Source: Dickeya dadantii NCPPB 898 (GTDB lineage Bacteria; Pseudomonadota; Gammaproteobacteria; Enterobacterales; Enterobacteriaceae). Taken from it: DNA of 32,000 nt. The translations under genes and the position numbers were made by a program. Below the pieces are notes generated by a model that saw only the letters and a program-made list of their open reading frames with translations, searched no databases and was not told where the DNA came from. Location: the NCBI RefSeq assembly GCF_000406145.1, contig NZ_CM001976.1, forward strand, positions 1,360,729 to 1,392,728, read 5' to 3'. Within the stretch, counting starts at the first letter, position 1; each line of letters starts with the position of its first letter. Shown here one piece after another: positions 25,910-27,466 of the stretch.

Positions 25910-27466
25910 ATGGAAAGAAGAGAGCTGGCAAAGAAAATATTATATGCGGTAGGGGGGACTTTAGCTGGGGTAACAGTATTAGAATCCCAGGCCGATGAAC
26001 TTAAAACTCAACATGTAGATCATATAGATATTGCATCTCTTTATCGCTCTAATAATACATTGCACGATACAGTAAATATACTCCAATTCGGCACAATGGA
26101 AGATGCAAGTTCAGCTTTTTATCAGGCATTATTATTCATAAATAAACGTGGGGGAGGGAATCTATTAGTTCCCAATGGGAATTATTCATTTAATAAGCGC
26201 GTGGAAATAAGGATAGGTTGTAAAATATCCATATATACGTCTTCGAATGCAATTATGACTATGCATTCAGATGAAGATATGTTTAGTATTGTTGGTTCTG
26301 AGAATGCGGCTTTTCGTATATTTGGTAATGGCGAGTTTATATACTCAGGGCCAAGATCTGATCATGCTTCTTGCATTCGATTTACTTCATTAAACCATGA
26401 TGGAGTATATGCGAGTAGTTCGTTCGAATGTAATGGTAGATTAAGGTTTAGAAAAGGAAAGAACGAATGGAAATATGCCCTCCATCTAACGGATGTTCGT
26501 GATGTTGTCTTGGTTGGTCCACAATTTGATGGGCTAAACTTACCTGAAAGAATGAGTGAGCAAATTGGAGTTTATGTTCAAACAAAAAACAGCGCGTCGG
26601 TTTCATGGGTTATTAATGATCTACAATTTAATGATATGAATACTGCATTTCATATAGAATCAAACACAGTTCCGGGTGCTGAAGGGTTTAAGTTTTTTAA
26701 TTGTGATATGGTCGGGGTTAAGTGTGGTATACGTTTTAAAAATAATGCTAAATATTACCCTCCACAGTTAGAGATTGTTGGGTGCCATATGAATGGATAT
26801 GGAAGCCTTATTGATATTGATAGAGCTTTAAGTATCCATATCGTTGGTGGTTTATTTTATAGAAAGGGTATCTCAGAAGGCGCGTTCTTAGAGTTTGATA
26901 GTGTGCAGGATGTTTCTATCGTTGGTGCCAGTTTCTGTTTAACTGGTAAAGAAACCGATGTTCCGTGCATCATTATAAAATCAACTGATGGTATTTCAGG
27001 CTTTTTCCGTATTTCTGATTGTCACTTTTGGGCTAACAAAAGAAAAAAACCATTTTTGAAAATATTAGGGAAAATCAATACGCTTTTGCTTTCAAATTCT
27101 AGCAAAGACTCATCCGGTAAATGGATAGATACTTCTGAGATGTCTTCTTTTAAAGATAATATCTATATAGATACAAATACAATTTCATTATCTGAGGTTG
27201 ATAAAGGTGACATGTGGGGCGGGGGTGTTGACTGCTCAATGGGGATCGTTGACCTTCGCAATGCCTTGCCAGGAATTGTCTATTTAAAAAATGTTACCAC
27301 ATTAAAAAAGATCATTGGTGGAAGAATAAACTCTACCTATATTCTGCGTTCAGATTCGGTTATTGAGTTGCAATATGGTGTAAATATAACTAATGGATCT
27401 GAGGTTGGGAAAGGGAAAAAAACAATTAGTGTGATATTTGATGGTGAAAATTATACTGTAATCTGA
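25910..27466 (+). CDS. Exported right-handed beta-helix protein (pectate-lyase-3 / WcaM-AmsF-WceF-like) with a twin-arginine-type signal; putative polysaccharide-modifying glycanase
   Basis: The ORF is 518 aa and AGGAGA lies before the ATG. The N-terminus is MERRELAKKILYAVGGTLAGVTVLESQA. An N-cap-like segment reads VNILQFGTMEDASSAFYQALLFINKRGGGNLLVPNGNYSF. Rung-like motifs recur: VVLVGPQFDG, WVINDLQFND, FKFFNCDMVG, LEIVGCHMNG, IHIVGGLFY, VSIVGASFC and FRISDCHFW. Confidence 0.7.
   Translation: MERRELAKKILYAVGGTLAGVTVLESQADELKTQHVDHIDIASLYRSNNTLHDTVNILQFGTMEDASSAFYQALLFINKRGGGNLLVPNGNYSFNKRVEIRIGCKISIYTSSNAIMTMHSDEDMFSIVGSENAAFRIFGNGEFIYSGPRSDHASCIRFTSLNHDGVYASSSFECNGRLRFRKGKNEWKYALHLTDVRDVVLVGPQFDGLNLPERMSEQIGVYVQTKNSASVSWVINDLQFNDMNTAFHIESNTVPGAEGFKFFNCDMVGVKCGIRFKNNAKYYPPQLEIVGCHMNGYGSLIDIDRALSIHIVGGLFYRKGISEGAFLEFDSVQDVSIVGASFCLTGKETDVPCIIIKSTDGISGFFRISDCHFWANKRKKPFLKILGKINTLLLSNSSKDSSGKWIDTSEMSSFKDNIYIDTNTISLSEVDKGDMWGGGVDCSMGIVDLRNALPGIVYLKNVTTLKKIIGGRINSTYILRSDSVIELQYGVNITNGSEVGKGKKTISVIFDGENYTVI

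What the first reader, a model, noticed from the sequence alone, without database searches (positions are those of the whole stretch)
25910..27466. Divergent beta-helix protein with a Tat-type signal, between the glycosyltransferases and wzy: candidate polymer-specific glycanase
**Seen in sequence**
- The N-terminus MERRELAKKILYAVGGTLAGVTVLESQA has a twin arginine, RR-x-L-x-K spacing, a hydrophobic core and an SQA cleavage-like site.
- The body contains at least 7 regularly recurring rung motifs of the form [IV]-x-[GDN]-[CG]-x-[FM]: VVLVGPQFDG, WVINDLQFND, FKFFNCDMVG, LEIVGCHMNG, IHIVGGLFY, VSIVGASFC and FRISDCHFW.
- There is an N-cap segment resembling pectate-lyase-3 and tailspike proteins.

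**Established knowledge**
- Colanic acid (WcaM), amylovoran (AmsF) and stewartan (WceF) clusters each encode a beta-helix protein.
- As I recall it, WcaM starts with an SRRTFL-type motif.
- WceF was shown to have a phage-tailspike-like fold and to cleave its own polymer.

**Inference**
- This gene is the functional analogue for a chemically different polymer.
- It lies in the roughly 30% GC cassette and shows no by-eye identity to WcaM. It is probably a new specificity class of self-EPS depolymerase or chain-length modulator.
- It could also be a source of, or relative of, phage depolymerase domains.
Basis: partly seen in the sequence, partly recalled or inferred. Interest (0 to 1): 0.7.

Follow-up and report, generated by a model that had tools for sequence, protein, structure and literature searches.

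The report
Tat-exported tailspike-like glycanase paired with Wzy
A Dickeya capsule/EPS locus encodes an uncharacterised, apparently periplasm-exported protein built like a phage tailspike; it always sits next to one lineage of sugar-chain polymerase (Wzy), and the same gene pair also rides on Klebsiella and Raoultella prophages, so it is probably a polymer-cutting enzyme that travels with its polymerase.

Summary
ORF 25910-27466 (518 aa) is real and under strong purifying selection (dN/dS 0.08-0.10). The twin-arginine N-terminus is kept in all 16 homologues, and the protein models confidently (pLDDT 84.5) as a right-handed parallel beta-helix.

It is not a WcaM homologue (BLASTP E 2.2; hhalign probability 0.2%). 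No WceF chain appeared in a PDB profile search.

Its nearest relatives outside the family are phage tail-fibre or tailspike fusions (E 6e-90 to 4e-33). They share the body from the N-cap (about residue 41) to about residue 485 and differ in the N-terminal module.

New here: in all 13 distinct contexts inspected, the gene lies next to one Wzy lineage.
- **Chromosomal loci:** Dickeya, Brenneria and Serratia cps loci, and a Klebsiella-type K locus.
- **Prophages:** in Klebsiella and Raoultella prophages the order is tailspike, an 83-aa gene, the Tat beta-helix, a convergent Wzy, then usually an O-acetyltransferase, at the prophage end (integrase or host genes next).

Best reading (0.55): an exported endoglycanase that trims the polymer made by its partner Wzy, as WceF and VexL act on the polymers of their own loci.

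Activity, substrate and localisation are untested. I rate it a new variant of a known kind.

The parts
25898..25902 (+). Shine-Dalgarno AGGAG, 7 nt before the ATG
   Evidence: Read directly from the sequence.
25910..25993 (+). Predicted Tat signal peptide, residues 1-28: MERRELAKK, then ILYAVGGTLAGVTVL, then ESQA
   Evidence: The RR motif is nearly invariant across the 16 homologues, and the one exception is a mis-called start. A 15-residue uncharged h-region follows. There is no Cys lipobox. pLDDT is below 50 here, as expected for a signal. No dedicated Tat predictor was available.
25994..26062 (+). Variable, low-confidence linker, residues 29-51
   Evidence: pLDDT is below 50 for residues 1-51. 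The region is rich in indels in alignment A1.
26063..27109 (+). Right-handed parallel beta-helix body, residues about 52-400, including the N-cap (LHDTVNILQFG...GGGNLLVPNGNY)
   Evidence: AlphaFold2 block-mean pLDDT is mostly above 90, and the region is all short strands. Foldseek matches RbmB lyase, a GH28 galacturonidase, Sf6 and HK620 tailspikes and AlgE epimerases, and phage tailspikes in BFVD. The N-cap matches 3jur and PF12708 weakly.
26672..26863 (+). Candidate active-site rungs, residues 255-318: PGxEGxK, NCD, PPQxE, GCHxNG, GGLxYR
   Evidence: P255, E258, G259, K261, P285, H293, N295 and Y317 are invariant, and D266, Q286 and C292 nearly so, across the family plus nine distant relatives: eight apparent phage tail-fibre or tailspike fusions and the Tat-type P0024 (A2). 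From the strand register, D266, H293, N295 and Y317 fall at outward-facing positions of stacked strands.
27110..27466 (+). C-terminal beta-rich domain, residues about 401-518, plus stop codon
   Evidence: pLDDT is 70-88. The region is also conserved in the phage relatives through the KDxxGxW motif. The profile match to the closest phage relatives runs to about position 485.
27607..28833 (+). Partner Wzy polymerase (408 aa), the only polymerase candidate in the locus
   Evidence: Wzy_C scores 32.8 bits against a cut-off of 31.7. It has nine TM-like segments. It is 50% identical to the Wzy next to the Klebsiella prophage homologue. Pairwise identities of the two genes co-vary across loci, r = 0.90.
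24916..25710 (+). Upstream GT2 glycosyltransferase, truncated in this strain
   Evidence: 264 aa here against 301-302 aa in two other Dickeya. One extra base in a T-run accounts for it.
10247..10284 (+). JUMPstart/ops element upstream of wza; probable start of the long + strand operon that includes the target
   Evidence: Rfam RF01707 at 48.5 bits (gathering score 35). The ops core GGCGGTAG lies at 10273-10280.
10997..31570 (+). Wzy-dependent EPS/capsule cluster: wza-wzb-wzc, wbaP-like gene, GT2, rmlBACD (gene order rmlB, rmlA, rmlC, rmlD), wzx, a GT-like ORF, GT2, GT2, the beta-helix gene, wzy, an epimerase, ugd
   Evidence: Pfam scans. The cluster sits at the colanic-acid position next to yegH-asmA-dcd-udk, as in E. 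coli K-12.

Best explanation
The gene encodes a pre-folded protein exported by the Tat pathway. Its mature part is a tailspike-type right-handed beta-helix.

It most likely acts as an endoglycanase (hydrolase or lyase, undecided), in the periplasm or at the cell surface. Its probable substrate is the rhamnose- and uronic-acid-type polysaccharide assembled by this locus.

Its specificity is tied to the repeat-unit linkage made by the adjacent Wzy. That would explain why the two genes are inherited, and moved between genomes, as a pair. Trimming could set chain length or release the polymer, or it could clear polymer that fails to be exported. WceF, VexL and AlgL are thought to play such roles in their own systems.

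Shown here:
- the ORF, its conservation and purifying selection;
- the RR motif;
- the predicted fold;
- homology to phage tail-fibre depolymerase domains;
- the linkage to Wzy;
- the prophage cassette.

Inferred:
- export by Tat;
- enzymatic activity;
- the own polymer as substrate;
- the physiological role.
For: **Fold and export**
- The AlphaFold2 model has pLDDT 84.5 and pTM 0.75 and is all-beta.
- Foldseek hits are polysaccharide lyases, GH28 enzymes and tailspikes.
- The RR motif is kept in all 16 homologues.

**Kinship with depolymerases**
- A profile search of 1.8 billion representatives gave 125 hits. The next relatives score E 6e-90 to 4e-33. Several carry PHROG tail-fibre N-termini in place of the signal.
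- One of them, P0017, is from K. pneumoniae.
- Ralstonia phage Reminis gene Rem55 is 33% identical over 86% of the query.
- An E/K/D/Q/H/N/Y core is invariant or nearly so across both kinds of protein.

**Evidence that the protein is functional**
- dN/dS is 0.08-0.10 among three Dickeya species, lower than for the neighbouring GTs and wzy.

**Coupling to Wzy**
- The two genes are adjacent in every context inspected: the window, L020, L021, L008, L010, L002, L003, L005, L011, L014, L016, L019 and L022.
- Pairwise identities of the two genes co-vary, r = 0.90.
- In four kinds of chromosomal cps locus, no other polymerase candidate was seen in the stretch inspected. In the window the partner is the only one in the cluster. 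That favours action on the partner's own product.

**Co-expression**
- All cluster genes lie on one strand downstream of a JUMPstart element.

**Precedents**
- WceF (PMC7949094) and VexL (PMC6003464).
Against: - No enzymatic, localisation or genetic data exist for any member. Every database name is 'hypothetical protein'.
- Neither Pfam nor NCBIfam recognises the query.
- Catalytic residues are guessed from conservation only. Hydrolase, lyase and epimerase cannot be told apart.
- A beta-helix fold alone is not proof of catalysis. PfbA, an adhesin, is among the structural hits.
- A Wzy relative at 39% identity in Acinetobacter junii has no such neighbour, so the polymerase does not need this protein in principle.
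- In prophages, a glycanase that cuts the product of the phage's own Wzy is not the most obvious design. Cutting the host's native polymer would make equal sense.
- Co-variation of the two genes may reflect physical linkage only.
Confidence: 0.55

Rival explanations
1. Conversion helper. The exported glycanase destroys a competing polymer, namely chains joined by a different, resident Wzy. Only the linkage made by its partner Wzy would then reach the surface. This would be a functional substitute for the polymerase inhibitor (Iap) of phage D3. In chromosomal loci the pair would be a captured or donor copy of such a cassette.
For: - In Klebsiella and Raoultella prophages the gene sits in a classic lysogenic-conversion position. 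The order is tailspike, an 83-aa gene, the Tat beta-helix, a convergent Wzy, then usually an O-acetyltransferase, followed by the integrase or host genes.
- The acyltransferases match PHROG O-antigen acetylase 'moron' families.
- A bidirectional terminator separates the convergent genes.
- For Acinetobacter phage-borne Wzy, how the native polymerase product is suppressed is stated to be unknown. Depolymerases typically cut the Wzy-made bond (PMC13228068).
- The cassette is low-GC in every host.
Against: - In Dickeya, Brenneria, Serratia and the Klebsiella-type K locus, no second Wzy was seen in the stretch inspected. There would be no competing polymer to remove, yet the gene is under strong purifying selection there.
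- The K-locus types of the lysogens were not determined.
- There are no experimental data.
Confidence: 0.17
2. The protein does not depolymerise. It could be a polymer-level modifying enzyme, such as a C5-epimerase like AlgG or AlgE. It could also be a non-catalytic periplasmic binder or scaffold that guides the nascent chain from Wzy to Wzc and Wza.
For: - AlgE4 and AlgE6 epimerase modules and an alginate epimerase/lyase are among the structural matches. 2pyh_B has the best target-normalised TM-score, 0.64.
- The adhesin PfbA also matches.
- The locus makes uronic acids: it has ugd and an adjacent epimerase gene.
Against: - The nearest sequence relatives are phage tail-fibre fusions, whose usual role is depolymerisation.
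- No AlgG-type DPHD motif is present. The corresponding rung reads GCHxNG.
- Foldseek scores among beta-helices do not discriminate function.
Confidence: 0.15
3. The protein is a secreted or surface-anchored enzyme that acts outside the cell, in matrix remodelling or dispersal, or on plant or foreign polysaccharide. It would not act on nascent polymer in the periplasm.
For: - WceF's final location is also unknown, and an extracellular role was proposed for it (PMC7949094).
- From my own knowledge, not tested here: Dickeya dadantii targets the beta-helix protein PnlH to the outer membrane through an uncleaved Tat signal.
- The Dickeya c-region (ESQA) is only a modest signal-peptidase site.
Against: - Strict linkage to Wzy in hosts with very different lifestyles, including human-associated Klebsiella, argues against a plant substrate.
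- No secretion-system gene accompanies the pair.
Confidence: 0.08
4. The gene is an inert remnant of a phage tailspike gene, or a divergent WcaM orthologue.
For: - The protein is homologous to tailspike domains.
- The locus occupies the colanic-acid position beside yegH-asmA.
Against: - dN/dS is 0.08-0.10, and the ORF is intact in all 17 clusters, each with a conserved signal peptide.
- There is no similarity to WcaM: BLASTP E 2.2 and hhalign probability 0.2%.
Confidence: 0.03

Closest known systems
WceF (Pantoea stewartii stewartan cluster) and its Erwinia counterpart AmsF
   Same: - It is encoded inside a wza-wzb-wzc, Wzy-dependent EPS cluster.
- It has a Tat signal.
- It has a tailspike-like right-handed beta-helix.
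- WceF cleaves its own EPS, and knock-outs give longer chains (PMC7949094).
   Different: - No WceF chain appeared at E <= 10 in a PDB search with the family profile.
- WceF is 736 aa, against 518 aa here.
- WceF is not reported as paired with Wzy or as phage-borne.
- The trimeric state of the present protein is unknown.
WcaM (E. coli/Salmonella colanic acid cluster)
   Same: - It has a Tat-type RR N-terminus, SRRTFL.
- It lies in the EPS cluster at the same chromosomal position next to yegH-asmA.
   Different: - There is no sequence relationship.
- WcaM is the last gene of its cluster and is not adjacent to the polymerase WcaD.
VexL (Vi-antigen loci of Burkholderiales) and RbmB (Vibrio cholerae VPS lyase)
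   Same: - Both are beta-helix depolymerases encoded in the biosynthesis locus of the polymer they cut. VexL is periplasmic (PMC6003464).
- RbmB is the top Foldseek hit by E-value.
   Different: - VexL belongs to an ABC-transporter pathway, not a Wzy pathway.
- TM-scores to RbmB are low (0.21-0.39), with 13-15% identity.
- Neither is known to move with a polymerase gene.
Phage tailspike or tail-fibre capsule depolymerases (e.g. the Sf6 and HK620 endoglycosidases; the Klebsiella prophage tail fibre P0017; Ralstonia phage Reminis Rem55)
   Same: The homology is real and covers the body from the N-cap (about residue 41) to about residue 485. Scores reach E 6e-90 at 21-33% identity, with a shared invariant core.
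   Different: - The virion-attachment N-terminus is replaced by a Tat signal. The protein is therefore sent to the cell envelope of the producer, not built into a virion.
- It is not similar to the tailspike of the prophage that carries it.
Phage serotype-conversion cassettes with a phage Wzy (P. aeruginosa D3 iap-wzy-beta-oac; A. baumannii Wzy1Ph and Wzy2Ph prophages)
   Same: - In the Klebsiella and Raoultella homologues, a Wzy, usually with an O-acetyltransferase, lies beside the tailspike gene at the prophage end.
- This is the same layout as described for A. baumannii (PMC13228068).
   Different: - Those systems have no exported beta-helix partner. D3 uses a small inhibitor peptide (my own knowledge).
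- The window's copy is chromosomal, inside the main EPS locus.

Membership tests
WcaM family | Detectable sequence homology to E. coli WcaM | tested here: not met
   BLASTP E 2.2. hhalign of the family profile against WcaM gives probability 0.2%.
WcaM family | Twin-arginine signal and location in a wza-wzb-wzc cluster at the yegH-asmA site | tested here: met
WceF/AmsF family | Sequence homology to WceF | tested here: not met
   A family-profile search of all PDB chain sequences at E <= 10 returned four chains, none of them WceF.
WceF/AmsF family | Tat signal plus a tailspike-like parallel beta-helix encoded in an EPS cluster | tested here: met
.
WceF/AmsF family | Cleaves the EPS of its own cluster, and loss lengthens the chains | not testable with these tools
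   This needs purified protein, purified polymer and a deletion mutant.
Pectate-lyase superfamily (Pfam PF12708, Pect-lyase_RHGA_epim) | Score above the Pfam gathering threshold | tested here: inconclusive
   The query itself gives no hit. Nine of 16 members give sub-threshold hits to the N-cap only, best 1.7e-5. The predicted fold agrees with the superfamily.
GH28 polygalacturonases/rhamnogalacturonases | Conserved catalytic rungs NTD / DD / GHG / RIK | tested here: not met
   Only the N-cap aligns: 3jur at E 0.003, 1rmg at 0.083, NCBIfam PglA at 0.034. The stacked rungs read QFND / NCD / GCH / GGLxYR. That is reminiscent of the GH28 pattern but is not the motif.
Phage tailspike/tail-fibre depolymerases | Homologous beta-helix receptor-binding or depolymerase domain | tested here: met
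   E 6e-90 to 4e-33 against proteins several of which have PHROG tail-fibre N-termini. Reminis Rem55 is 33% identical over 86% of the query.
Phage tailspike/tail-fibre depolymerases | N-terminal virion-attachment module | tested here: not met
   Residues 1-28 are a signal peptide. The only PHROG match is weak and falls on the N-cap.
Tat substrates | Consensus (S/T)-R-R-x-F-L-K, then a weakly hydrophobic h-region, then a cleavage site | tested here: met
   The family consensus is M-E-R-R-D-F-A-K-K, followed by 15-21 uncharged Gly/Ala-rich residues. I applied a simple rule of my own, not TatP or TatFind.
Tat substrates | Export depends on TatABC | not testable with these tools
   This needs a tat mutant or an RR-to-KK variant.
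Prophage serotype/capsule-conversion cassette | Surface-polysaccharide modifying genes between the tail-fibre genes and the att/int end of a prophage | tested here: met
   This is met for the Klebsiella and Raoultella homologues. It is not met for the window's copy, which lies in the chromosomal EPS locus.
Prophage serotype/capsule-conversion cassette | Changes the polymer made by the lysogen | not testable with these tools
   This needs CPS structures from lysogens and cured strains.

The most novel reading that the evidence does not exclude
The Tat-exported, tailspike-derived beta-helix is a new functional component of a mobile capsule-conversion cassette made of a glycanase, a Wzy and an O-acetyltransferase.

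Temperate Klebsiella and Raoultella phages would use it to rewrite the host capsule. The phage Wzy makes a new inter-unit bond. The periplasmic depolymerase removes chains carrying the resident bond, or polices chain length.

This would answer the open question of how phage-borne Wzy enzymes displace the product of the native polymerase. The Dickeya, Brenneria, Serratia and K-locus copies would be the chromosomal source or sink of the same module.
Probability: 0.17. Interest if true: 0.8.

Novelty: new variant of a known kind. Interest (0 to 1): 0.6.

Why it matters
**For Dickeya.** The work identifies the polymerase and a likely chain-trimming enzyme of a strain-variable EPS/capsule locus. 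A published survey listed these genes as two hypothetical proteins and stated that the locus had no wzy (PMC7877592).

**More generally.** It defines an uncharacterised family of exported tailspike-like proteins that is genetically locked to one Wzy lineage. It shows the same domain used in two ways: on virions with a tail adaptor, and in the cell envelope with a Tat signal.

**For Klebsiella and Raoultella.** A Wzy, usually with an O-acetyltransferase, together with this protein at the tail-fibre end of prophages suggests prophage-driven capsule conversion. If that is real, it would confound K-locus-based typing. It would also affect the choice of phages or depolymerases for therapy and of vaccine antigens. 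It gives a concrete candidate for how a phage cassette could override the resident polymerase product.

**As a reagent.** The enzyme could serve as a linkage-specific tool for a rhamnose/uronic-acid polymer.

Tried and rejected
- **WcaM homology.** Rejected: BLASTP E 2.2 and hhalign probability 0.2%.
- **Direct family assignment.** Pfam, NCBIfam and PDB sequence searches of the query gave nothing significant. With the family profile, only an N-cap match to a GH28 enzyme appeared.
- **Duplicate of the prophage's own tailspike.** Rejected: E is 1.3 and 0.34 in the two prophages tested.
- **Anti-phage defence annotation.** No PADLOC hit for the beta-helix, the Wzy, the acyltransferase or the 83-aa ORF.
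- **Breadth searches.**
  - The one-genome-per-species collection holds only the Serratia aquatilis copy.
  - IMG/VR holds one provirus contig.
  - GenBank phages hold only Ralstonia phage Reminis for the beta-helix and nothing for the Wzy.
  - Complete E. coli genomes hold no copy of the K-locus variant pair.
  - The plasmid collection was not searched.
- **Promoter and terminator scans in the window.** Uninformative; counts equalled the shuffle expectation.
- **ORF 23024-23896 as an alternative polymerase.** Rejected: it has no TM segment and looks like a soluble GT-A-type enzyme.
- **KL type of the Klebsiella-type K locus L022.** A literature search did not resolve it.
- **Active-site geometry.** I could not check it because model coordinates are not exposed by the tools.
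Full report
**1. What is at the coordinates**

ORF 25910-27466 (+) encodes 518 aa. It starts at ATG, with AGGAG seven bases upstream.

An identical protein is on record as a Dickeya dadantii hypothetical protein.

The window is a Wzy-dependent EPS/capsule cluster at the colanic-acid position.
- Upstream lie the genes for an ApbC/Mrp-type ATPase, a uridine kinase, a dCTP deaminase, an AsmA-family protein and a YegH-like protein. The matching E. coli K-12 genes are dcd, asmA and yegH.
- A JUMPstart/ops element follows at 10247-10284.
- The cluster then runs wza, wzb, wzc, a WbaP-like initiating transferase, GT2, rmlBACD (gene order rmlB, rmlA, rmlC, rmlD), wzx, a soluble GT-like ORF, GT2, GT2, the target, a Wzy_C protein, an epimerase and ugd.
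- All cluster genes are on the + strand.

The target and wzy lie in a 30-37% GC block inside 55-60% GC flanks.

The 408-aa Wzy_C protein has nine TM-like segments and is the only polymerase candidate. The 290-aa ORF without a Pfam hit has none.

**2. Checking the observation**

All quoted peptide segments are present, at residues 199, 233, 260, 287, 309, 335 and 366, spaced 22-34 residues apart.
That compares with 0.16 expected; 1 of 2000 shuffles reached it.
- A looser strand-turn-strand motif fits six; 0 of 2000 shuffles reached that.

An AlphaFold2 model built on 16 homologues has mean pLDDT 84.5 and pTM 0.75.
- Most blocks between residues 52 and 400 are above 90.
- The model consists of short strands only. 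Each quoted segment is a pair of consecutive strands.

Foldseek against the PDB returns the following, all at 8-16% identity:
- the RbmB VPS lyase;
- a GH28 galacturonidase;
- the Sf6 and HK620 tailspikes;
- AlgE epimerase modules;
- fucoidan and alginate lyases.

Against viral models it returns tailspikes and pectate-lyase-superfamily proteins.

The predicted fold is therefore a right-handed parallel beta-helix.

**3. The signal**

The family N-terminus is M-[EDNK]-R-R-x-[FLVA]-[AT]-[KR]-[KRN], followed by 15-21 uncharged Gly/Ala-rich residues and often a basic residue before an A-x-A-like site.
- The single sequence that seemed to lack RR (Serratia aquatilis) has a mis-called start. The upstream frame reads IVDRRNLVKK.
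- A 43%-identical homologue found later begins MRRRELCKS.
- E. coli WcaM indeed starts MPFKKLSRRTFL.

I could not run TatP. The call rests on motif conservation and a simple rule of my own. Export itself is inferred.

**4. What family it is**

The query hits no Pfam or NCBIfam model and no PDB sequence. With the family profile, only the N-cap matches, to the exo-polygalacturonase 3jur at E 0.003. Nine of 16 members give sub-threshold PF12708 hits.

It is not related to WcaM: BLASTP E 2.2 and hhalign probability 0.2%. No WceF chain appears in the PDB profile search.

The word-indexed database holds only 16 clusters at 90% identity, plus one more found through its neighbour.
- They come from Dickeya, Brenneria, Serratia, Klebsiella and Raoultella.
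- All are named 'hypothetical protein', apart from one UniRef 'Pectate lyase superfamily protein domain-containing protein' label.

An exhaustive HMM search of 1.8 billion representatives gives 125 hits.
- After the family itself come proteins of 541-863 aa, at E 6e-90 to 4e-33. In them the same body, from the N-cap (about residue 41) to about residue 485, follows an N-terminal extension of 20-340 residues.
- Several of those extensions match PHROG tail-fibre families.
- The closest, P0017, is from K. pneumoniae.
- Ralstonia phage Reminis Rem55 is 33% identical over 86% of the query.

Across both kinds of protein, P255, E258, G259, K261, P285, H293, N295 and Y317 are invariant. D266, Q286, C292 and the GGL motif are nearly so.

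By strand register, D266, H293, N295 and Y317 occupy outward-facing positions on stacked strands of consecutive coils. That is where beta-helix glycanases place their active sites. This is inference from sequence and secondary structure; I could not inspect coordinates.

A few distant relatives in other bacteria also carry RR signals (P0024, P0036, P0048, P0115).

In short, this is a tailspike-type depolymerase domain whose address label is a Tat signal instead of a virion adaptor.

**5. The gene is functional**

Among D. dadantii, Dickeya sp. NCPPB 3274 and D. dianthicola, dN/dS is 0.08-0.10. For wzy it is 0.12-0.14, and for the neighbouring GTs 0.08-0.23.

**6. The unexpected context**

In every context I inspected, the gene is adjacent to a homologue of the window's Wzy.

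| Context | Loci | Arrangement |
|---|---|---|
| Three Dickeya | window, L020, L021 | Co-directional |
| Brenneria goodwinii, Serratia aquatilis | L008, L010 | Chromosomal polysaccharide loci; convergent, followed by an Acyl_transf_3 gene |
| Klebsiella-type K locus | L022-L024 | wzc, GT2, wbaP, three GT2, a 501-aa homologue, convergent wzy, a 300-aa gene, wzx, gnd, rml genes, ugd |
| Klebsiella and Raoultella prophages or remnants | L002-L007, L011-L012, L014-L017; IMG/VR contig L019 | Tailspike, 83-aa gene, Tat beta-helix, convergent Wzy, then usually an acyltransferase, then integrase or host genes |

Further detail on the pair:
- In the K locus the homologue is 43% identical to the target and the Wzy 46% identical to the window's.
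- Contig lengths and locus tags pair up the remaining clusters.
- The two genes co-diverge, r = 0.90 over 28 non-independent pairs, and both are 32-41% GC in every host.

Further detail on the prophage copies:
- The usual order is GpJ or baseplate genes, a 596-746 aa tailspike, an 83-84 aa ORF, the Tat beta-helix, then a convergent Wzy.
- In four of the five intact-prophage contexts the next gene is Acyl_transf_3, with or without an SGNH domain. Integrase or host genes follow.
- Two unrelated tail types carry the same cassette.
- The acyltransferases match PHROG O-antigen acetylase 'moron' families.
- A bidirectional terminator sits between the convergent genes.
- The prophage's own tailspike is unrelated to the Tat protein.
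- One Raoultella copy is a mosaic of two types.

A more distant Wzy relative (39% identity, Acinetobacter junii) has no such neighbour.

**7. Interpretation**

Firmly supported: an exported (by signal), tailspike-type beta-helix, homologous to phage depolymerase domains, co-inherited with one Wzy lineage.

The most likely function is endoglycanase action on the polymer whose inter-unit bond the partner Wzy makes.
- In four kinds of chromosomal locus, no other polymerase candidate was seen in the stretch inspected. In the window the partner is the only one in the cluster.
- The gene is strongly constrained.
- Locus-encoded envelope glycanases are well known. WceF has a Tat signal, is tailspike-like and cleaves stewartan, and knock-outs make longer chains (PMC7949094). 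VexL is a periplasmic beta-helix lyase in Vi-antigen loci (PMC6003464).

The main rival comes from the prophage setting. For A. baumannii prophages carrying a Wzy next to the tailspike gene, the authors note two things. Depolymerases usually cut the Wzy-made bond, and it is unknown how the product of the resident polymerase is suppressed (PMC13228068). A periplasmic depolymerase aimed at the resident linkage would do exactly that.

The chromosomal single-Wzy loci argue against this as the general role, so I give it 0.17.

Other readings:
- epimerase or scaffold: 0.15;
- extracellular action: 0.08;
- inert remnant or WcaM orthologue: 0.03.

Hydrolase and lyase cannot be told apart.

**8. Novelty and score**

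Tat-exported tailspike-like enzymes in EPS clusters are a known kind. This family is unrelated in sequence to WcaM and uncharacterised. No WceF chain was found by sequence search.

Two features are new as far as the searched literature shows:
- obligate pairing with a Wzy lineage;
- carriage in a prophage cassette with a Wzy and usually an O-acetyltransferase.

The published Dickeya survey lists the two genes as hypothetical and states that the locus has no wzy.

I rate it a new variant of a known kind, with interest 0.6.

Noticed in passing
window 24916-25710 (frameshift near 25670-25690): The GT2 gene just upstream of the target is 264 aa here but 301-302 aa in D. dianthicola and Dickeya sp. 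NCPPB 3274. One extra base in a T-run explains the early stop and the 200-bp 'intergenic' gap. It is either a pseudogenising frameshift or a sequencing error.
   Followed up: partly
window 10247-10284 (+): A JUMPstart RNA element (Rfam RF01707, 48.5 bits) with the ops core GGCGGTAG lies about 700 bp upstream of wza. This implies RfaH-dependent read-through of the whole + strand cluster, including the target.
   Followed up: yes
window 27607-28833: A published survey of Dickeya polysaccharide clusters (PMC7877592) says this locus contains no wzy and lists two hypothetical proteins. The 408-aa ORF has a Wzy_C domain (32.8 bits against a cut-off of 31.7) and nine TM-like segments.
   Followed up: yes
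L022:8001-10755 (also L023, L024): A Klebsiella-type K locus, seen in K. quasipneumoniae and K. variicola and present in many assemblies, carries a 43%-identical homologue (501 aa, MRRRELCKS...). It is convergent with a 403-aa Wzy that lies on the opposite strand to the rest of the locus. The KL type was not identified, and no complete E. coli genome has the pair.
   Followed up: partly
L002:9473-9724, L011:2485-2736, L014:9454-9705, L016:9573-9827: A conserved 83-84 aa ORF always sits between the prophage tailspike gene and the Tat beta-helix gene. It has no Pfam, PHROG or PADLOC match, and it is absent from the Dickeya locus.
   Followed up: partly
L002:11530-11547: A perfect GC-rich hairpin (AGCCCTCATCTGAGGGCT) with T-runs on both strands lies exactly between the convergent beta-helix and wzy genes of the prophage cassette. 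It is a likely bidirectional terminator.
   Followed up: no
L016:10001-11521 compared with L002 and L011: The Raoultella beta-helix gene is a mosaic. Its signal peptide and first ~190 residues follow the K. pneumoniae L002 type. The rest of the gene, and the adjacent Wzy, follow the L011 type. This indicates recombination inside the gene.
   Followed up: partly
window 1048-3165 (+): A 705-aa ORF in the high-GC left flank has no Pfam match, and a long antisense ORF overlaps it.
   Followed up: no
D. dadantii 3937 (not in the window; from PMC7877592): The paper reports that strain 3937 has a different cassette at this locus, containing epsG (a polymerase-type gene) and a gene annotated 'phage-tail protein'. 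This may be a second, independent polymerase plus tailspike-like pairing. I could not fetch that sequence.
   Followed up: no
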